Positions 5,327-43,746 of a DNA stretch of 64,000 bases are shown here, in pieces. This DNA comes from a virus. The notes below the pieces were generated by a model that made no database searches, was not told the origin of the DNA, and saw nothing but the letters and a program-made list of their open reading frames with translations. Every line of letters begins with the position of its first letter. The stretch's first letter is position 1. The stretch covers positions 20,458 to 84,457 of the IMG/VR virus record IMGVR_UViG_3300005253_000186; one strand, written 5' to 3'. Position numbers and translations under genes: made by a program.

Positions 5327-5902
5327 CTATCGGTTTCGCCTCGCAGCATTCCTGGCTTTACCGATACCTTTTCCCGTAAGGGCGTACTTCTCCCCAGACT
5401 TCTTGAGCTCCCCGCTCGCCACCATGGAATCCAGGATGAAGGCCAGATTCCCGCTCTTCTTATCCATCCACGGGTCAATGTCCATGGCAGAATCAGACCC
5501 TCGGCCGCACCAGATCCCCGCGGCGCGGATACGCCTGGCGATCTTGCGGACCCTGTCTCGCTCGTATCCAGTGAACTTCGTGATTCGGTCGGCGTTAGGG
5601 CCTACGGACATGCACGACAAAAGAACGACAGCGGACTGGAAGAAATACTGATCATCCTGAGACTTGCATTCAAGTACTTCTTCGACGATCCTTTTTACTT
5701 CTTCCAGGTCTGGATGAAGGCATGAGCTCTTCGTCGACCTCTTTGGCGAGTCTAGCCTCGTAGTAGTCTTCGGGTTCGTCGGTGTGAACCCAAGCCTCTC
5801 CCTCTGGTTCTTCCTTGGCCTGGCCGAGATCAGGCTCGTTGACCGGAATGGAATCGGAGCTGGTATCGCTGATAATGAATGCCAGTGCTGCGTCTTCGCC
5901 AT
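5327..5902 (-). CDS. hypothetical protein (start uncertain; overlaps next ORF)
   Basis: C-terminal ~130 aa look protein-like; N-terminal part overlaps 5670..6254. Confidence 0.4.
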   Translation of the reverse strand: MAKTQHWHSLSAIPAPIPFRSTSLISARPRKNQRERLGFTPTNPKTTTRLDSPKRSTKSSCLHPDLEEVKRIVEEVLECKSQDDQYFFQSAVVLLSCMSVGPNADRITKFTGYERDRVRKIARRIRAAGIWCGRGSDSAMDIDPWMDKKSGNLAFILDSMVASGELKKSGEKYALTGKGIGKARNAARRNR

Positions 5903-15462: not shown

Positions 15463-15674
15463 TACTCGGCGTCGTGTATTGGTGCGCCGCCACACGCCAT
15501 GGATATTACTCGCTGGGTCATGACTTGAATATCAATCTTCTCGCTCGAATTTGTCAGATGGTGTTGCAGCAAGTCGTAGATTCTGCCGAACTCGTCTCCT
15601 GGATCATCTTTTGGGGTTCCATGGTCTTCGAATTGAAACATAGTCGTTTTTTCGACAATTACTTCGATCTTCAT
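15462..15674 (-). CDS. hypothetical protein
   Basis: start reassigned to MKIEVI with GGAG. Confidence 0.55.
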   Translation of the reverse strand: MKIEVIVEKTTMFQFEDHGTPKDDPGDEFGRIYDLLQHHLTNSSEKIDIQVMTQRVISMACGGAPIHDAE

Positions 15675-18533: not shown

Positions 18534-18839
18534 TCACGAACAGACGAATCTTATGACCGACACGTCCTCGGGTAGTTGTGTCGTGTCGACCTCGAAACCC
18601 GTCGATTCTTTCTCGCTGTACTTCTTCAGCCATGGCGGGAGCTCTTTTTTCTCCGCACACTGCGACCAGCACCCCGCCTCCACCCCTGATTCGTCGGGTG
18701 GCTCTCTATTGAAGAACTTGTCGACTTCCTTGGGCGGCTCGATTCCGGCCTCTTCACACGAATCCCAGACGGCTTTCATCTTCTTCCACTTCTCGTTGGG
18801 TGGCTTAAACGCCTCAACATGCATCGACATTATTCCCAT
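18534..18839 (-). CDS. hypothetical protein
   Basis: GGGAG RBS, coupled to AAA gene. Confidence 0.65.
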   Translation of the reverse strand: MGIMSMHVEAFKPPNEKWKKMKAVWDSCEEAGIEPPKEVDKFFNREPPDESGVEAGCWSQCAEKKELPPWLKKYSEKESTGFEVDTTQLPEDVSVIRFVCS

Positions 18840-37759: not shown

Positions 37760-38269
37760 TTAGTTCAGGCACAATCTGAAAAGATCGGCCCCGGGAAGGC
37801 TGGGCGGGCCATCCCACTGCGTATTGAACGGTTTATCCATCTTCTCGCGATCGAGTTCCCCCCTGGTGTCTGGCAGGACCATCCTTAACACGGTCCTTCC
37901 GCTCTCTTGTGCTTCTATTAGCGCAACATCCATGTTCTTAATTATATCGGAGAGCCTGTCTCCCGCCTTGAATTTCTCTCCCGATTTGATCTTCTCGATG
38001 GCGAGACCGAACAGATTGTGCGCCAAGACCGGAGGCATGGGAGCAACAATCTGAAGATCAGGATGGCCGAAACTTTCGAGGCATCCATGAGTATGATAAT
38101 TGACTCCCGTGGGCGTCTGATCGTCACCACCGCCAATCGCGTGGCAGTACCATCCGTGGTCCTCGATATTTTTCTTCTGCTTTTCCTCTATCTCCTGAAT
38201 GGACTTCTCTTTTGTTTCGTCATCGAGATTACACAGGCCGCAATTGCAACCCCTAGCGTGGACTCTCAT
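37760..38269 (-). CDS. DUF4262-like protein
   Basis: IEDHGWYCHAI...YHTHGCLESFGHPDLQI. Confidence 0.65.
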   Translation of the reverse strand: MRVHARGCNCGLCNLDDETKEKSIQEIEEKQKKNIEDHGWYCHAIGGGDDQTPTGVNYHTHGCLESFGHPDLQIVAPMPPVLAHNLFGLAIEKIKSGEKFKAGDRLSDIIKNMDVALIEAQESGRTVLRMVLPDTRGELDREKMDKPFNTQWDGPPSLPGADLFRLCLN

Positions 38270-38306
38270 GTCTGTAGCCTCCTGCGGCTCATCAATAACC
38301 GATGGC

Positions 38307-38510
38307 TCACCATGTTCTCCTATCCAGTCTGCGCTGAATCGTAATCGAAGCGTCCCGCATAGCCTTGATGCCAACCTCTATGATCGTTCTGTCGTGCGGT
38401 TCCGCTGTCTTCAATCTACGTTCTGCGTCAGCTATCTGAATATTGAGAAGCCTGATCTTCTTTTCAAGCTTATCCTCCCGGTTTTTCGATCGATGAATCG
38501 CTCGAAACAT
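38307..38510 (-). CDS. small coiled-coil protein
   Basis: ORF track. Confidence 0.5.
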   Translation of the reverse strand: MFRAIHRSKNREDKLEKKIRLLNIQIADAERRLKTAEPHDRTIIEVGIKAMRDASITIQRRLDRRTW

Positions 38511-38771: not shown

Positions 38772-39413
38772 TTATGCTCGTATCTCTACGAGCTCGAAAG
38801 CTCCGAACTTGCCGCCCCTTTCGGGGCGCCACTCGCCAATGCCGACAGAGCGACCGGCCCTGTCGACTATTGATGCGAGGTCATCCGGCCGCAGAAGATC
38901 TTGGTCAATATCTGCCTTGACGACCATCTCCCAGCCTTTCGGAAAAATGGCTCTGGTCTTCTCGATCATCTTTCTTCCGCTACCGCGTGTGGCGATGTTA
39001 ACTTCCGCCGTATACGGCTTCGGAACAACCTTCGTGACTGGGATAACATCTTCGGGAACATGAACCGCTGCACGAATCAAGTCTCGAAGATCCCAGTCTT
39101 TCACCTCATGGGCCATTCTAGTGCATGCCAGCTTCACGTAGTATCCCGGCATGCCGTACTTCCCATGCTTTCTTTCACTCCACTTCTCCCGACCATCAAC
39201 AGGGCAGAGCGCCTGCTTGAACTGCTCGTCGGGAGTCATCTTCCCGAACACCTTCGGGTCGATTCGGCAGTTACGGATTTCTCCGTGTTTTGTCCGCCAG
39301 TTGCTGCACAGAAGATCTGAGATCCCTCGGATGACGATCTCGATGCTGGTCATCACCATCTTCGGGATATAGACTCTTCCGCCTTGTTGCATCGTTGCCT
39401 GTTCCATGATCAT
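38772..39413 (-). CDS. RAMP/Cas7-like protein, paralogue 2 (Vipr-like)
   Basis: IEIVIRGISDLL first strand; C-terminal G-rich loop RAGRSVGIGEWRPERGGKFGAF; collinear with 39495-40265. Confidence 0.7.
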   Translation of the reverse strand: MIMEQATMQQGGRVYIPKMVMTSIEIVIRGISDLLCSNWRTKHGEIRNCRIDPKVFGKMTPDEQFKQALCPVDGREKWSERKHGKYGMPGYYVKLACTRMAHEVKDWDLRDLIRAAVHVPEDVIPVTKVVPKPYTAEVNIATRGSGRKMIEKTRAIFPKGWEMVVKADIDQDLLRPDDLASIVDRAGRSVGIGEWRPERGGKFGAFELVEIRA

Positions 39414-39494
39414 CCCTCCAGAGAAAGCGGGAGGAGAGGATTCCCGCGGGGGCGAGTTAGTCCTCTCCTCCCAGACAGCACGGAAGAACGCCAG

Positions 39495-40265
39495 CTACTT
39501 CCGTCCGCTGCCCTTTTTGTAGATGATGGGGAAGGCCTCATTCCGGGAGAACAATCTCTTCTTGGGGGCCTTCGTATGCTTCATGGAGACGGGCTCGAAC
39601 CGGCCCATCATCCCATTGCAGGACGGCCTCCAGTCCCCGACACCGACACTCATCCCGGCGCGATATAGAAGATTGAACACCGAGATCTCGTCGATGATCG
39701 ACTTGTCGATGCTCATTACGATGTTCGCCTCCCATTCTGCGGGGAAGCACCCGCGGAAGCGAATGTCCGCGCTCTTGCTTGACGGGAGACGGACCACGTC
39801 TTGCCGATTGTAGGGCGTCATGTTCTCGATCCCCACCACATCGTCTTCCACGAAGAAGCAACCGCGAGCATACGTCATGTTGAGCCCTTCAACGTATCTG
39901 GCAGCTCCGACGCATGCCTGCTTGAAGGCGTGGCCGGCAAGACCGAACTTTCCGGGCTTGTTATCCTTCCACTTCTCCCGCCCGGGCACGACGTAGAGGG
40001 ACTCCATGTACTCCTGGATGGGTTCCCGCAATCCTCTCTTCGGACGAGAGACGTTCATCTGGTTGTCGAGGATTTTCCTTTGGGCCGCAGCCCCGAACCG
40101 ATGCGTGATCAAGGGCGACAGGCCGATGATGTGGATGATGTAGTAAACCCAATCCGGCTTGATGATCTCGATCGTCTTGTTCTCGGCATCCTTGCCGGTC
40201 TTCTTTGCGACCTTCTTGGTCGTCTTCTTTTTCGTGCTCTTCTTTCTCGCTGTCTGTACAGCCAT
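39495..40265 (-). CDS. RAMP/Cas7-like protein, paralogue 1 (Vipr-like)
   Basis: IHIIGLSPLITH, AFKQACVGAA, DVVRL...ADIRFRGCF, G-rich loop RAGMSVGVGDWRPSCNGMMGRF. Confidence 0.75.
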   Translation of the reverse strand: MAVQTARKKSTKKKTTKKVAKKTGKDAENKTIEIIKPDWVYYIIHIIGLSPLITHRFGAAAQRKILDNQMNVSRPKRGLREPIQEYMESLYVVPGREKWKDNKPGKFGLAGHAFKQACVGAARYVEGLNMTYARGCFFVEDDVVGIENMTPYNRQDVVRLPSSKSADIRFRGCFPAEWEANIVMSIDKSIIDEISVFNLLYRAGMSVGVGDWRPSCNGMMGRFEPVSMKHTKAPKKRLFSRNEAFPIIYKKGSGRK

Positions 40266-40379
40266 GTCAAAGACTCCTTCTGGGGTGTGGGACCTTTCGG
40301 CCTCCGGTGATTCATAACTTTATAGATTCTCCGAGTCCTCCGCCTCGGTAATTTGTGTTGGTGAGCAAAATGAACTGAT

Positions 40380-42147
40380 CCAGCCGTAACCTAGCATACC
40401 TGATCGCGCCAAGACGGGCGATGACCTGCCTCCCAGCCACGCCCCGCCGAAGATGGCTTTGACAGCCACCTATGTAAGAGAGGATGTGGGCCCAGAGTCC
40501 TCTGAATTTCTTATACCGTATTTCCAGCCCGGACAAAACGTGCCCTACCGTTCCACACCGCTCCGTGCCAAGCCTACCAGCCTTAACCCGCCTGAACGTG
40601 CGCGACCCTCCCCGACGAGACTTGCACTCCAGCCGTACCCTAGCCCGCCAATTCATAACGCGCAGCAACAGGCTCCGCCCAACAGCGACCTGCCTTCCAG
40701 CCATGCCCCGACGAACATAACGGATCCCCGACCCGACCTGGCGAGCCGAGCCTAGCCGTCCAGCCATACCCTGCCACAACGAAACGGACCTTTCCAGACA
40801 CCTCCGTGCCATCCAGCCGTAACCCGCCGAACCTACCCTAGCCTAACCGATCCGTGCCACAACGTGCCGAACCATACCATCCAGCCGCACCATGCAATTC
40901 CGGACCCAGCAATGCCACTCCGGGCAGAGCCGAGCCTTCCAGCCGTACCTCTACGGGACGTGCCTAGCACTGCCGATCAGCACCATCCACGCCTTCCAGC
41001 CTCAACACAACGTCCCAGGACTAACCTCGCCAAGACCAACCTTCCAGCCTCGCTTCGCTAGCCTTGACGAGCCGTACCGGTCAGCGACGAGCCCGTCCCA
41101 AACTTACCCTCCAGCCGCAACCCACAATAACAGGCCAAGGCCCGACAGGCGGCACCTGACCGCACCTACCAGCCATAACGCGCAGCGCCTAGCCCAACGG
41201 CACCCTGACGCACTTCGCCAGTCCTCCCAGCCAAACCCGAACAGAATAAAACGGATCATACAGAACACTTCCGTGCCGTGCCGTGCAGAACCTAGCCCTC
41301 CAGCCATACCGCACCGAGCCTGTCCGGGTCACGCGGGAACAAGACACACGATGCCATCCAGCCGTACAGGAACACGCCGTGCCGAGCGCGAACCAAACGC
41401 AACCTACGCGGACCAACCACCCAGCCGTAACATGACCCTCGGCAACCAACAGTGACGTGACCAACCCGAACGCACCCAACCATCCAGCCTAGACACAACC
41501 GATCTCGACTTTCCAAGCCAAGCCGAGCCTGACCCTCCAGCCACAACTAGACAAAACAATCCGCCCAAACGGCAACCCCGCCTAATCACGCCATCCAGCC
41601 ATGAGATAACGAGCGCGGCCATGCCGGAACGTGCCCGGACGAACCTAGCCCAACCGGTCCGAACCTTCCAGCCCCACATGAACCCACAGGGCCTAGCCCC
41701 GACGCGCCAGATCCAGACGAGCCTAGACACACCGACCAGCCGTAACTTACCATGCCATTGCGCGCCTAACGCAACGGGCCTCATCCTGCCATCCAGCCAC
41801 ACCCGGATAAATCCGGACAAACCTAACCCGGAGCCGCCCTTCCAACCAGCCGTACCGGGACAAAACAATCCGGGACGGGACGAGCCTTGCCTATCCACGC
41901 CCCTCCAGCCATAACCCGCTCAGACGAACCCGGACTCGCATGACCCTCCTCGCCTCTCCGTCCAGCCGTGCCAAACAACGCCGCAACACAACCCAGCACA
42001 ACACGCAAGGCCTGGCCTGGCCTACCAGCCGTAACATCCCCTCCATGACAGACGGTGACGTACCCATCCAGGGCGCACCATGCCATCTCCAGCCATACCC
42101 CGCCGTACACTGACGAACCCAAACGTTCCAGAACGTGCCAGCCAGCC
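40380..42147 (-). repeat. non-coding array of 30 GGCTGG-delimited units made of GGY-NN pentamers (candidate guide-RNA array)
   Basis: CCAGCC on + strand at 30 positions; 21 of 29 spacings are 48/53/58/63/68/73 nt (5n+3). Confidence 0.9.
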
Positions 42148-42849
42148 TTAATCGCCACCCGCTGAGTCGCGGTGACGAGAAAGATAGATCTTCCTCGGGC
42201 GCTTCTGGTGCTTCCGCTCCTTGTTGATGCCGGACAGGATCGAATCGCACTTGCCCCTGATGGTATTGCACAGCTTCGCGAGAACCTTCATGTACTGATA
42301 CTTATCGGCGATATGACGGAGATCATTCGCGGCGTTAATTAGCGCCTGCTGGCGCATGTCCGGATCAGACATGACCTCGAAGGTCGGAAAGTAACGCCGA
42401 TCCGTCTGACGATCTCCGGTCTGGATGGAGATCATAATCGGTGACTCGATCATCTGCCCTCTTGCGTCCGTGTCGATCACGATGATCGAACGGCAGAGAT
42501 ACTTGGCCTGTTCAATGCGCCACTTGTCCGCTGCGACCTTGTTGACCCAATCAAAATAAGGGTTGAGCGGAGAGGATCCTTGGGACGCCGCGCTAACGAT
42601 GTTCTCCGGCGTGCAGTCAACGCCACTGGATGCCAGGTCATACAGGGCGGCGCCATACGTCTTGGCCTCCACCTTGTTCAGGCGTGCTCCTGGACCAGGC
42701 TTGAAATCTCGATTATCAATGTGGACGGATCCGTTGACCCATACGACTTCGTGCGGACCCTTGGCCTTCGGTGGCTTTCTGGCCGATTTCCTCTTAGAGG
42801 ACTTCTTCTTGTCTTTCGCCTTCTTTACTGTCTTCTTCTTCTTTGCCAA
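42148..42849 (-). CDS. conserved phage protein co-transcribed with the array
   Basis: TPENIVSAA...SPLNPYFDW...AADKWRIEQAKYLCRSI; stop codon abuts first array unit; GGTATAAG promoter at 42897. Confidence 0.75.
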   Translation of the reverse strand: MAKKKKTVKKAKDKKKSSKRKSARKPPKAKGPHEVVWVNGSVHIDNRDFKPGPGARLNKVEAKTYGAALYDLASSGVDCTPENIVSAASQGSSPLNPYFDWVNKVAADKWRIEQAKYLCRSIIVIDTDARGQMIESPIMISIQTGDRQTDRRYFPTFEVMSDPDMRQQALINAANDLRHIADKYQYMKVLAKLCNTIRGKCDSILSGINKERKHQKRPRKIYLSRHRDSAGGD

Positions 42850-42908
42850 CTTCGGTCTCCTGTTCTGAGGGGATCAAAAGAAAACGCTACAGTCTTCTTA
42901 TACCGGAA

Positions 42909-43271
42909 TCAGGTAGCGCCAATCGCCTGCTTCATTGCGTAGGCCATTTTAATGAACACGCCCTCGAACATCTTCTCGATGATCTTGTCGGCGTGCTCAG
43001 CAACAACTTCCTTGAACAGACCAGCAGGATCTCCCCAGGTGGATCCCCAGTAATCCATATCGGAAACCTGAGTCCGGATCATCTCCTTGATGCGCTTGTC
43101 GAGCGCCTCTTTGATCCAATTCTCAAGTTCGCGTTTTCTGCTCCCGGTGACGAGCTCGTAGATCTGGCCCCGGACCATCTTGTCCCATTCTTCTTCGGGA
43201 ATTGCCTCTGTGATATAGTGGGCGACCTTCTGCGCGACGATCGCCTGGATATTCATCTCACCCGCGTCCAT
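42909..43271 (-). CDS. hypothetical helical protein
   Basis: start reassigned to MDAGEM. Confidence 0.55.
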   Translation of the reverse strand: MDAGEMNIQAIVAQKVAHYITEAIPEEEWDKMVRGQIYELVTGSRKRELENWIKEALDKRIKEMIRTQVSDMDYWGSTWGDPAGLFKEVVAEHADKIIEKMFEGVFIKMAYAMKQAIGAT

Positions 43272-43746
43272 CCTTTGCCTTTCCGATCTCCGCGTATTCG
43301 CCTGGGTACCAGGGATACTCGGTTGGATCTCTATGGTAGACGCCGCCCGTTGCCGTTTGGTCGAACATGGCATACGCCTTGAGCCTAGGAAGGGCATCTG
43401 AAGATATTTCCTCCTTGAGCTCCCGGGCTGTCACCCATCTGTATTCGGTGTGCTCGGAGTTTATCGTAACCTCTGGGTCGATGACCATCGTAGCCTTGAA
43501 AATAACGAAGACGAATGTCCCCCCGTTATCCGTCCCGTTCGAGAACACCATCGCGATCTTCGTCGGTCGGATCTCGAACCCGGTCTCCTCAAGAACCTCT
43601 CTTGCTGCTGCCTGCTCCAGGTTTTCGGGTGGTTCAACCTTGCCTCCAGGAAAGTTCCACTTCCCGTTATCCGACCTCCTGAGGACCAGGACTCTGCGAT
43701 CGCGCATTCTTTGGATTACTGTCGATACGGCTACTTTAGGCTCCAT
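43258..43746 (-). CDS. Nudix hydrolase
   Basis: Nudix box GGKVEPPENLEQAAAREVLEETG. Confidence 0.92.
   Translation of the reverse strand: MEPKVAVSTVIQRMRDRRVLVLRRSDNGKWNFPGGKVEPPENLEQAAAREVLEETGFEIRPTKIAMVFSNGTDNGGTFVFVIFKATMVIDPEVTINSEHTEYRWVTARELKEEISSDALPRLKAYAMFDQTATGGVYHRDPTEYPWYPGEYAEIGKAKDGRG

What the first reader, a model, noticed from the sequence alone, without database searches (positions are those of the whole stretch)
40380..42147. Array geometry: 30 GGCTGG boundaries with unit lengths quantised at 5n+3 nt
CCAGCC (+ strand) starts at 40380, 40433, 40524, 40577, 40629, 40697, 40760, 40813, 40881, 40939, 40996, 41044, 41111, 41169, 41227, 41300, 41358, 41421, 41484, 41537, 41595, 41668, 41736, 41793, 41846, 41905, 41962, 42025, 42089 and 42142. 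Of 29 spacings, 21 are exactly 48/53/58/63/68/73, seven are off by one, and one is 91. Example unit (minus strand, 40886-40819): GGCTGGAT GGT-AT GGT-TC GGC-AC GTT-GT GGC-AC GGA-TC GGT-TA GGC-TA GGG-TA GGT-TC GGC-GG GTT-AC. I saw no two identical units, so information sits mainly in positions 4-5 of each pentamer (8-13 pentamers, 16-26 variable nt per unit). The triplet is degenerate (GGY, GTY, TGY).
Basis: seen in the sequence. Interest (0 to 1): 0.9.

Follow-up and report, generated by a model that had tools for sequence, protein, structure and literature searches.

The report
Phage VIPR guide-RNA array, 28 guides
This stretch of an uncultured marine-sediment phage is a long guide-RNA array of the recently described VIPR system, a CRISPR-like gene silencer that phages seem to use against rival phages, and its odd features are the punctuation between guides and a second copy of the guide-binding protein.

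Summary
All 30 listed CCAGCC sites exist, plus one overlapping site at 42138. Of 29 spacings, 21 are 5n+3 (binomial P about 2e-9). Read on the minus strand, pentamer positions 1-3 are G-K-Y (0.88, 1.24, 1.52 bits) and positions 4-5 carry 1.99 and 1.96 bits. No two units are alike.

It is a VIPR locus (bioRxiv 10.64898/2026.04.26.720920). The order is accessory gene, array, then two Cas7-like Vipr genes. Vipr1 has a Csm3/Cas7 fold and matches the tested SUSP1 Vipr (hhalign 98.4%), including the residues that hold GGY. Similar same-strand arrays flank Vipr homologues in 68 of 80 viral loci.

Three things differ from the published cases:
- Guides abut without tails and are separated by two 4-nt units (GGCT-GGAN), which gives 5n+3. 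Relatives use one GGCA, which gives 5n+4.
- T takes pentamer position 2 in 28% of units.
- A conserved second Vipr paralogue has both G1-contact residues changed. None of 83 comparison loci has one.

Decoded guides point at a DnaB-type primase-helicase, an SF2 helicase and a terminase-neighbour HTH gene. These are candidate targets, not proven ones.

This scan has met VIPR on other DNA before: 59 notes in at least 53 genomes. The locus is a new member of a known kind.

The parts
42148..42849 (-). vap-like accessory gene (233 aa, phrog_15946) with a Lys-rich N-terminal tail. Its TAA stop directly abuts the first GGCTGG.
   Evidence: ORF and sequence. phrog_15946 at E 2.4e-12. A homologue sits just downstream of vipr in 61 of 83 comparison loci. 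It shows no match to SUSP1 vap1. The AF2 model has pLDDT 79 and gave no clear fold match.
40380..42147 (-). vrRNA array of 29 units: 28 pentamer-coded guides and one non-pentameric 91-nt unit. Each boundary reads ...G-K-T-A-Y GGC-TG GAN.
   Evidence: There is no Rfam family at E<=1 and no long ORF consistent with a period of 5.
42031..42094 (-). Guide 2 (64 nt, irregular at its 5' end). It lands on the same own-genome site as guide 12.
41427..41489 (-). Guide 12 (63 nt). Read antisense it spells V[IM]PA[HQ]VV[HQ]RA[HQ]. It matches 18 of 22 NN positions in the phage's own HTH gene upstream of TerL.
   Evidence: (0 of 60 shuffles reach it).
41306..41363 (-). Guide 14 (58 nt). Read antisense it spells [IM]A[DE][CW]GTG[KN]T[IM], which resembles helicase motif I.
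41233..41305 (-). Guide 15 (73 nt, 12 variable units). Read antisense it spells R[SR][KN]G[IM][DE]LVVV[DE]Y, a DnaB-type Walker B region.
40439..40529 (-). Odd 91-nt unit 28. It is not pentameric and holds one small hairpin. Its role is unknown.
   Evidence: The fold of 40266-40545(-) has z-score +0.9, so it is no more stable than shuffles.
39495..40265 (-). vipr1 (256 aa): a Cas7/Csm3-like RAMP with the G-loop GVGDWRP and Lys-rich tails.
   Evidence: phrog_4652. The AF2 model has pLDDT 82. Foldseek top hits are type VII Cas7 and type III Csm3, at E 4e-7 and above. hhalign to SUSP1 Vipr gives 98.4% probability.
38772..39413 (-). vipr2 (213 aa): a diverged Vipr paralogue, 31% identical to vipr1. 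It has His->Ser and Asp->Glu at the two positions that contact G1 in the SUSP1 Vipr.

Best explanation
The array is the guide-RNA (vrRNA) array of a VIPR system (Viral Interference Programmable Repeat). It is carried by a large uncultured marine-sediment phage.

Shown here:
- A non-coding, strand-specific array of 28 distinct units, each with 7-12 variable G-K-Y-N-N pentamers.
- The array sits between a vap-like gene and two Cas7-like Vipr genes, all on the minus strand.
- Vipr1 is homologous to the experimentally characterised SUSP1 Vipr and keeps the residues that hold G1, G2 and Y3.
- The same gene pair with same-strand pentamer arrays recurs across many phages.

Inferred from the published mechanism:
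- The array is transcribed with its flanking genes.
- One Vipr protomer binds each pentamer, buries G-K-Y and presents NN.
- The NN dinucleotides pair with double-stranded DNA that reads NNx NNx, where x is usually the codon wobble base. This silences genes of competing phages.

Inferred here:
- The two consecutive 4-nt units (GGCT, GGAN) at each boundary cannot present a dinucleotide. They therefore break the filament register and delimit guides, which is why unit lengths are 5n+3.
- Decoded guides point at replication and packaging genes of other phages: a DnaB-type primase-helicase, an SF2 helicase, and an HTH gene beside the large terminase.
For: Geometry and entropy are as described.

Vipr1:
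- The AF2 model has pLDDT 82 and pTM 0.74.
- Foldseek against PDB gives 126 matches at E<=0.001. The top ones are the Cas7 of type VII and Csm3 of type III complexes.
- The family profile A1 finds exactly one gene in SUSP1 (NC_028808.2 28495-29061, E 4e-15). hhalign gives 98.4% probability over 170 columns.
- SUSP1 H17, R138 and D177-W178-R179 are the GGY contacts (10.64898/2026.04.26.720927, section 5). They align with H55, R171 and D211-W212-R213 of Vipr1.

Association of genes and arrays:
- phrog_4652 and phrog_15946 genes are adjacent in Gordonia phage ODay, Mycobacterium phage Quico and cyanophage Cy-LDV1. GGC-NN arrays lie beside them.
- A period-5 G signal on the gene's strand is found in 51 of 80 IMG/VR loci, and on the other strand in 1.
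- 68 of 80 loci have at least one boundary between two good pentamer runs.
- A vap homologue is found in 61 of 83 loci.

Exclusions:
- No Cas1 in the 84-kb record, with the control search ringing in 7 of 14 genomes.
- No Rfam family in the array.

Relatives:
- In two other marine-sediment studies, related contigs keep vipr and vap at about 90-95% likeness. They cover the array only in scraps with joints.

Targets:
- The 9-unit core of guide 15 has 5 exact hits in viral contigs. All 5 are antisense and in frame in GI[DE]LVVVDY.
- The best of these, L102, matches 22 of 24 variable NN positions. It lies in an AEP-primase/DnaB_C gene (PF03796, 6.5e-44).
- Guide 14 (20 specified bases) has 3 exact hits in metagenome contigs. 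Two are SF2 helicases hit at IAECGTGKTI.
- Guides 12 and 2 both land, with the skip base on the wobble position, on the conserved RVIPxRxLxR site of the phage's own HTH gene upstream of TerL.
Against: - No RNA data: no listed sequencing run is RNA. The consensus scan finds no convincing promoter or terminator for the array.
- Position 2 is T in 28% of pentamers. The SUSP1 work reports that perturbing GGY abolishes silencing.
- There is no 3' tail or pseudoknot as in type II vrRNAs. How the guides are cut or delimited is unknown.
- The accessory protein has no detectable similarity to SUSP1 vap1 (hhalign probability 0.07%). It has no clear fold match.
- Full-length exact scans found nothing for guide 12 (viral), guide 9 (viral) or guide 15 (viral and metagenome).
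- The guide 15 hits were pre-selected by an exact 18-base core. Their remaining six variable NN positions match in 4, 2, 3, 2 and 1 of 6, so they are family-level targets at best.
- Three exact hits for guide 14 is near the number chance could give. The two helicase hits are homologues, so they count as one event.
- Guide 12's 16 exact hits in genome contigs fall in at least five unrelated contexts. I take them as chance plus family replication.
- Four self near-matches reach 0.81-0.83 NN identity. The published clades had none at or above 0.80.
Confidence: 0.82

Rival explanations
1. The array is a protein-binding RNA scaffold, decoy or sponge, not a set of guides. Many copies of a ring or filament protein would bind the G-K-Y triplets, and positions 4-5 would be unconstrained spacers, as in a TRAP-type (G/U)AG array.
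For: Period-5 triplets with free spacers and about 10-15 sites per unit resemble, from memory, the TRAP binding site in the trp leader. High entropy at positions 4-5 is what unconstrained spacers would also give. No full-length natural target was found for guides 9, 12 or 15.
Against: The neighbouring protein is a homologue of a Vipr shown to use NN for DNA targeting (preprint Results). The decoded guides are not random-looking: guide 15 spells a DnaB Walker B region over at least 9 codons with the skip on the wobble base. Guides 2 and 12 hit one conserved site in the same register. Relatives keep the genes but change the array content, as expected of guides.
Confidence: 0.04
2. The array is a simple satellite or slippage-generated pentanucleotide repeat with no function.
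For: It is repetitive, G/T-rich and non-coding, with strong strand asymmetry in composition.
Against: The units are no more alike than shuffled ones, and TRF finds no real tandem duplication. The boundary motif is exact at all 30 boundaries. The grammar, strand and gene association are conserved from actinophages to a cyanophage and in 68 of 80 viral loci. An identical array occurs in a second sample.
Confidence: 0.01
3. It is a VIPR array, but the long transcript is not cut into guides. Vipr would coat the whole 1.8-kb RNA, and the 4-nt units would be only register shifts or kinks between segments that act in cis.
For: No ribozyme or other Rfam family, no tails and no inter-unit hairpins are seen. 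The published staggered arrays were not among the architectures confirmed by small-RNA sequencing (preprint, section 9).
Against: Unit sizes of 9-14 pentamers including the two constant ones fall within the published 9-16 repeats of single vrRNAs. The boundary motif is far more conserved than a mere kink would need.
Confidence: 0.12
4. It is an unusual CRISPR array with very short repeats, served by type III-like Cas7 proteins.
For: The neighbouring proteins have a Cas7/Csm3 fold. The 8 bases that begin each unit (GGCTGGAN) equal, from memory, the length of crRNA 5' tags. Length steps recall the 6-nt steps of type III crRNAs.
Against: The only exact repeat is 6 nt. The 'spacers' are themselves periodic. 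There is no Cas1, no CRISPR repeat family in Rfam, and no other cas gene among ten neighbouring ORFs.
Confidence: 0.01

Closest known systems
Type II VIPR of Escherichia phage SUSP1 (vipr agp039, vap1 agp038; bioRxiv 10.64898/2026.04.26.720920 and 10.64898/2026.04.26.720927)
   Same: The Vipr is homologous and keeps the residues that contact G1, G2 and Y3. The guides are built of GGY-NN-type pentamers with hypervariable NN. The system is phage-borne. Decoded guides fall on coding sequence with the skip base at the wobble position.
   Different: SUSP1 has four vrRNAs of about 100 nt, each with a tail of about 40 nt and a pseudoknot. Here there are 28 abutting guides of 48-73 nt without tails. 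SUSP1 has one Vipr and this locus has two. The accessory protein is not detectably related to vap1. The gene order is vap-array-vipr-vipr, where SUSP1 and 61 comparison loci have vipr-vap. Pentamer position 2 is G or T.
Staggered vrRNA arrays (legend of fig. S18 of 10.64898/2026.04.26.720920; the figure itself was not seen)
   Same: The guides abut, so the end of one marks the start of the next, with no ribozyme and no tail. The relatives fetched here show this architecture with a single 4-nt GGCA (or GGCC, GGCT) between runs, giving 5n+4, which equals a 1-nt overlap.
   Different: Here each boundary holds two 4-nt units (GGCT then GGAN), giving 5n+3. It is preceded by a semi-constant G-K-T-A-Y pentamer. 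Double 4-mers occur sporadically in relatives: 7 of 9 boundaries in L027, and some in L053.
Class 1 CRISPR backbone filaments (Csm3/Cmr4/Cas7 on crRNA)
   Same: The protein has the RAMP fold with G-loop and thumb. One protomer binds per fixed number of guide nucleotides, so guide length is quantised by the protomer footprint.
   Different: The period is 5 nt, with 3 buried and 2 read, where CRISPR filaments have 6 nt with 1 flipped. There is no repeat-spacer array and no Cas1. The published VIPR target is double-stranded DNA read with a 1-nt skip.

Membership tests
VIPR system | A Vipr protein with the minimal RAMP fold (RRM core, G-loop, thumb) | tested here: met
   The AF2 model has pLDDT 82. 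Foldseek top matches are type VII Cas7 and type III Csm3, from E 3.9e-7, with 126 matches at E<=0.001. The G-loop GVGDWRP is invariant or near-invariant in 18 homologues.
VIPR system | Sequence homology to an experimentally characterised Vipr (SUSP1) | tested here: met
   Profile A1 gives one hit in NC_028808.2, at E 4e-15. hhalign gives 98.4% probability and E 8.5e-15 over 170 columns.
VIPR system | Residues that hold GGY (SUSP1 H17, R138, D177, W178, R179; cryo-EM preprint, section 5) | tested here: met
   Vipr1 has H55, R171, D211, W212 and R213 at the aligned positions. Vipr2 keeps the R, W and R but has Ser for the His and Glu for the Asp. SUSP1 K33 aligns with N71 in Vipr1, so that one is not conserved.
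VIPR system | vrRNA made of tandem pentamers with a conserved GGY (or related consensus) and hypervariable NN, at least 4 units, typically 9-16 per vrRNA | tested here: met
   There are 253 variable pentamers. Entropies are 0.88, 1.24, 1.52, 1.99 and 1.96 bits. Each guide has 7-12 variable units plus 2 constant ones. The consensus is G-K-Y, not strict GGY.
VIPR system | A minimal locus of vipr plus one accessory (vap) gene, without CRISPR array or cas genes | tested here: met
   The vap-like gene is adjacent. The same family lies next to vipr in 61 of 83 loci. There is no Cas1 and no CRISPR family in Rfam. Which of vap1-6 this is could not be decided. It is not SUSP1 vap1 by sequence. The type figure and supplements were not visible.
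VIPR system | vrRNAs are expressed and co-purify with Vipr | not testable with these tools
   No RNA run is listed. This needs small-RNA sequencing and a pull-down.
VIPR system | Natural targets under the 1-nt-skip rule: gapless, at least 80% NN match, skip mostly at the wobble base | tested here: inconclusive
   Guide 15 matches 22 of 24 variable NN positions in a DnaB_C gene (L102) and 21 of 24 in L104. These hits were pre-selected by an exact 18-base core. Guide 14 matches 20 of 20 in two homologous SF2 helicases, out of 3 exact hits. Full-length exact scans for guides 9, 12 and 15 found nothing in viral contigs, and nothing for guide 15 in metagenome contigs. No shuffled-guide control could be run on the collections.
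VIPR system | No self-targeting at or above 80% NN match (as in the published clades) | tested here: not met
   Four self hits reach 0.81-0.83 in the 84-kb record: guide 1 at 15/18, guide 23 at 15/18, guide 12 at 18/22 and guide 2 at 13/16. Shuffled guides reach the guide 1, 23 and 2 values in 2, 1 and 22 of 60 trials, and the guide 12 value in 0 of 60. None is a perfect match. This was an observation about two clades, not a definition.
Staggered vrRNA array (fig. S18 legend) | Adjacent vrRNAs overlap by 1 nt, so spacing is 5n+4 | tested here: not met
   The spacing here is 5n+3 in 21 of 29 cases. Of 23 scored boundaries, 18 have a 3-nt net linker and one has a 4-nt linker. Relatives mostly have the 4-nt GGCA. 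The array works like a staggered array but with doubled punctuation.
CRISPR array | Direct repeats of about 23-50 nt separating unique spacers, with cas1/cas2 nearby | tested here: not met
   The only exact repeat is 6 nt. The intervening sequence is itself periodic. There is no Cas1.

The most novel reading that the evidence does not exclude
Vipr2 is a specialised second RAMP, not a spare copy. Its subfamily has Ser or Asn in place of the His and Glu in place of the Asp at the two G1-contact positions, wherever these are visible. On this reading it reads the doubled 4-nt punctuation (GGCT-GGAN), or caps each filament end, as Cas5 caps the crRNA handle beside Cas7. It would thereby delimit or process the 28 tail-less guides. 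That would be a virus-borne VIPR already showing the RAMP duplication and division of labour that the discovery preprint places after the move into cells, on the road to class 1 CRISPR.
Probability: 0.15. Interest if true: 0.75.

Novelty: new member of a known kind. Interest (0 to 1): 0.4.

Why it matters
VIPR was described only in 2026, and its tail-less 'staggered' arrays have not been confirmed by RNA sequencing (discovery preprint, section 9). This locus is a clean, long natural example, and it offers three things.

- It has 28 different guides, an exact 6-nt boundary and strict length quanta. That gives a direct test of how guides are delimited without a tail or ribozyme.
- It pairs a canonical Vipr with a conserved, diverged paralogue, which bears on how multi-RAMP effectors arose.
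- Its decoded guides suggest that replication and packaging genes of rival phages are the targets, which fits the published picture of warfare between phages.

None of this changes the known principle.

Tried and rejected
- TRAP-like or other ring-protein RNA site. This was my first reading. I dropped it once the neighbour proved to be a Vipr homologue.
- G-quadruplex or Chi-like array. I considered these from the sequence alone. T at position 2 in 28% of units, and the conserved protein association, argue against them. They were not tested further.
- Blastn of 39400-43400 against phages: no match.
- The search for related loci with Vipr1 alone and with the HTH/TerS-like protein alone: nothing found.
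- The one IMG/VR relative of that protein (G001, 94 kb, 47% identity) has no Vipr in the fragment. No guide hit there exceeds shuffles.
- TerL has only 27-29% identical relatives among cultured phages, so no host could be named.
- Exact full-length pattern scans found nothing for guide 12 (viral), guide 9 (viral) or guide 15 (viral, metagenome).
- Guide 12 in genome contigs gave 16 hits in mostly GC-rich proteobacterial and actinobacterial genomes (plus one Providencia and one Cytophagales record) and unrelated contexts. Several read ..NVCRHR.. with the skip at codon position 1, and one reads like a MutS C-terminus. Both names are recalled, not tested. I took these hits as chance and did not count them.
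- Vap fold: Foldseek gave nothing at E<=0.001. VIA wide gave a best Z of 6.7, with helical-hairpin rows tied. No function is inferred.
- The own record has no DnaB_C above the cut-off. The 13.7-bit hit is an AAA+ ATPase.
- No RNA holder is listed among the sequencing runs.
- The fold of 40266-40545(-) is no more stable than shuffles.
- The promoter and terminator scan gave nothing convincing.
- The text of the discovery preprint holds no occurrence of 'paralog', 'two Vipr' or 'heteromer'. I did not search the other two preprints for this, and the supplements are closed. I therefore cannot say that two-Vipr systems are unpublished: the preprint counts 670 Viprs in 667 systems.

What I saw of each paper:
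- 10.64898/2026.04.26.720920: outline, sections 4, 10, 18, 20, 26 and 27, and passages found by search, including the legends of figs S17-S22.
- 10.64898/2026.04.26.720927: outline and abstract, sections 5 and 6.
- 10.64898/2026.10.15.759431: outline and abstract, section 17.
- 10.64898/2026.10.21.760802: search listing only.
Full report
OBSERVATION

The window is bases 20458-84457 of an 84,457-base IMG/VR virus record, which CheckV rates at about 51% complete. It carries 32 tRNA genes and a tmRNA on the minus strand.

One more, at 42138, overlaps 42142. That gives 31 sites in 1,768 bases against 20 in the remaining 62.2 kb. P(>=21 of 29 at 0.2) = 1.7e-9.

On the minus strand the region is G 730, T 450, C 364, A 224. 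The GG autocorrelation peaks at lags 5, 10 and 15, and a coding control is flat at those lags. I parsed 29 units: 28 are pentameric, and one 91-nt unit (40529-40439) is not.

The pooled logo of 253 variable pentamers gives:
- Position 1: G 83% (0.88 bit).
- Position 2: G 66%, T 28% (1.24 bits).
- Position 3: C 49%, T 38%, A 11% (1.52 bits).
- Positions 4 and 5: 1.99 and 1.96 bits.
- NN dinucleotide entropy: 3.93 of 4 bits.

The units are no more alike than shuffled ones (best pair 0.71, null mean 0.72). Tandem Repeats Finder sees no real duplication.

ANATOMY

Each boundary reads ...G-K-T-A-Y, then GGC-TG in phase with the unit before it, then a 3-nt GAN, then the next unit. Put another way, there are two consecutive 4-nt units, GGCT and GGAN, and this is where 5n+3 comes from.

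The TAA stop of the upstream ORF 42148-42849(-) directly abuts the first GGCTGG. The last GGCTGG lies 114 nt before the ATG of ORF 39495-40265(-). A paralogous ORF, 38772-39413(-), follows. The array matches no Rfam family even at E<=1. The consensus scan finds no convincing promoter or terminator. The simplest reading, which is inferred, is one minus-strand transcript across all four elements.

WHAT THE NEIGHBOURS ARE

The two downstream ORFs match phrog_4652 and the upstream one matches phrog_15946. Both families are annotated as unknown, and none of the three ORFs matches a Pfam family.

An AlphaFold2 model of the 256-aa protein (pLDDT 82) matches the Cas7 of type VII complexes and the Csm3 of type III complexes (Foldseek E from 3.9e-7, 126 matches at E<=0.001).

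At that point a search of this scan's earlier notes and a literature search both led to the VIPR preprints. These describe:
- Vipr, a minimal Cas7-like RAMP.
- vrRNAs made of GGY-NN pentamers.
- An accessory vap gene.
- Recognition of double-stranded DNA that reads NNx NNx, with x usually the codon wobble base.
- Silencing of competing phages and satellites.

Sources are 10.64898/2026.04.26.720920 (Results and Discussion read) and 10.64898/2026.04.26.720927 (sections 5 and 6 read).

I then tested membership directly. One search confirmed that NC_028808.2 is Escherichia phage SUSP1. The profile of my 18 homologues finds one gene there, at E 4e-15. This is agp039, followed by agp038, the gene downstream of vipr where the preprint places vap1. 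hhalign gives 98.4% probability. The published GGY contacts H17, R138, D177, W178 and R179 align with H55, R171, D211, W212 and R213 of Vipr1.

COMPARATIVE SUPPORT

The two gene families are adjacent in Gordonia phage ODay, Mycobacterium phage Quico and cyanophage Cy-LDV1. GGC-NN arrays lie in the gaps beside them.

The IMG/VR scan found 479 stretches encoding a relative, and I fetched 80. In those 80:
- A crude period-5 detector finds a G signal on the gene's strand in 51 loci and on the opposite strand in 1.
- A parser finds at least one boundary between two good pentamer runs in 68 loci.
- The vap family lies just downstream of vipr in 61 of 83 loci, counting the three phage records.

In these relatives the punctuation is mostly a single 4-nt GGCA (or GGCC, GGCT), giving 5n+4. 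This fits the legend of fig. S18, which describes 'staggered' arrays with a 1-nt overlap. Doubled 4-mers like the ones here occur in a minority, for example 7 of 9 boundaries in L027 and some in L053. L038 has 26 boundaries, so an array of about 30 units is not unique.

The stretch occurs in marine-sediment metagenomes. A second sample from the same study holds an identical array. Contigs from two other studies are about 90-95% alike over vipr1, vipr2 and vap. They cover the array only in scraps, with skips of 123, 258 and 780 bases and other joints. This is contig evidence and therefore weak. It is what guide turnover would look like.

WHAT DIFFERS HERE

(1) The punctuation is doubled, and a semi-constant G-K-T-A-Y unit precedes it.

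(2) T takes pentamer position 2 in 28% of units. It never does so in the first unit (0 of 26) and does so in half of the last two.

(3) The gene order is vap-array-vipr-vipr.

(4) The accessory protein is not detectably related to SUSP1 vap1. Its model (pLDDT 79) has no clear fold match. I could not assign a VIPR type, because the type figure and supplements were not visible.

(5) There is a second Vipr.
- None of the 83 comparison loci has two.
- Vipr2 is 31% identical to Vipr1.
- An exhaustive search of 1.84 billion representatives finds 849 Vipr-family proteins at E<=0.001. Only three are close to Vipr2 (93%, 50% and 48% identity). The next is a Vipr1-type protein at E 5e-19.
- All four Vipr2-type sequences have Ser or Asn where the family has the G1-contacting His. 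The three that reach the G-loop have Glu where the family has Asp. The R, W and R that hold G2 and Y3 are kept.
- This looks like a maintained, specialised paralogue. Its role is unknown.

TARGETS

I decoded each guide as NNx, following the preprints (sections 26 and 27, and section 17 of 10.64898/2026.10.15.759431).

In the phage's own 84-kb record there is no perfect match. The best value is 0.83.

One self hit stands out. Guide 12 (18 of 22; 0 of 60 shuffles reach this) and guide 2 (13 of 16) land in the same register at G000 15494-15525. The skip base falls on the codon wobble position. The site lies inside a 398-aa ORF immediately upstream of the large terminase. That ORF has weak MerR/HTH similarity, and the terminase matches GpA_ATPase. 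The site is the conserved RVIPxRxLxR of that protein family. I read this as two guides aimed at alleles of the same gene in related phages, with the phage's own copy mismatched. This is inference: none of the five homologues retrieved spells guide 12's peptide exactly.

Read antisense, guide 15 spells R[SR][KN]G[IM][DE]LVVV[DE]Y.
- Its 9-unit core has 5 exact hits in IMG/VR. All five are in frame in GI[DE]LVVVDY.
- L102 matches 22 of 24 variable NN positions. Its gene is an AEP-primase/DnaB_C fusion (PF03796, 6.5e-44).

Guide 14 spells [IM]A[DE][CW]GTG[KN]T[IM]. Two of its three exact metagenome hits are SF2 helicases, hit at IAECGTGKTI.

Caveats:
- The guide 15 hits were pre-selected by an exact core.
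- The hits for each guide are homologues, so each set counts as one event.
- Three exact hits for guide 14 is close to what chance could give.
- Full-length scans for guides 9, 12 and 15 found nothing.
- Guide 12's 16 exact hits in cellular genomes are scattered over unrelated genes, and I discount them.
- No shuffled-guide control was possible on the collections.

The targets are therefore candidates only. As a group they fall on replication and packaging genes, which fits the published role.

VERDICT

The element is a VIPR guide array, a kind published in 2026 and met repeatedly by this scan on other DNA (59 notes in at least 53 genomes). It is a new member of a known kind.

Two local features are worth a bench test: the doubled 4-nt punctuation that gives 5n+3, and a conserved second RAMP paralogue with an altered G1 pocket. 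The mechanism is taken from the SUSP1 work and has not been shown for this locus. Transcription, guide processing and targets remain untested here.

Noticed in passing
window 9010-37067, minus strand: There are 32 tRNA genes and a tmRNA (tag peptide ADNGYRMAA) in one orientation, which marks a large phage with its own translation kit.
   Followed up: no
L092:15284-18152 (G000, outside the window): A 398-aa HTH-like gene overlaps the start of the large terminase (GpA_ATPase, 7.9e-14). Its conserved RVIPxRxLxR site is the near-match of guides 2 and 12.
   Followed up: partly
window 42148-42849 and 39495-40265: Both the vap-like protein and Vipr1 carry Lys-rich tails of about 30 residues. Most homologues in alignments A1 and A3 lack them.
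   Followed up: no
window 18839-19978, minus strand (L107:997-2136): A 379-aa AAA+ ATPase (GPPGTGKS, ILEDID) gave a sub-threshold DnaB_C hit.
   Followed up: partly
window 43258-43746 and 37760-38374, minus strand: A NUDIX hydrolase (6.4e-22) and a DUF4262 protein (2.7e-14) flank the VIPR locus.
   Followed up: no
L010:4757-4938 and 5564-5677 (cyanophage Cy-LDV1): Two pentamer arrays lie one on each side of the vap-like gene g33, next to an excisionase and Red-type recombination genes.
   Followed up: partly
L011:4560-4825 (Mycobacterium phage Quico): An array of about 260 nt lies upstream of the vipr homologue gene 57. It ends in a hairpin whose stem is GGCTGG/CCAGCC, the same hexamer that punctuates the array studied here.
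   Followed up: no
L038:4542-7089: This IMG/VR locus has 26 scored guide boundaries in two blocks, mostly GGCC. It is an array as long as the one studied here.
   Followed up: no
window 40380-42147: The unit before each boundary is semi-constant (G-K-T-A-Y; A in 18 of 28, Y in 22 of 28). If it pairs, every target would carry (G/A)T at one end, a PAM-like anchor. In the self near-match of guides 2 and 12 this unit pairs fully, while the constant TG unit pairs at 1 of 2 positions.
   Followed up: partly
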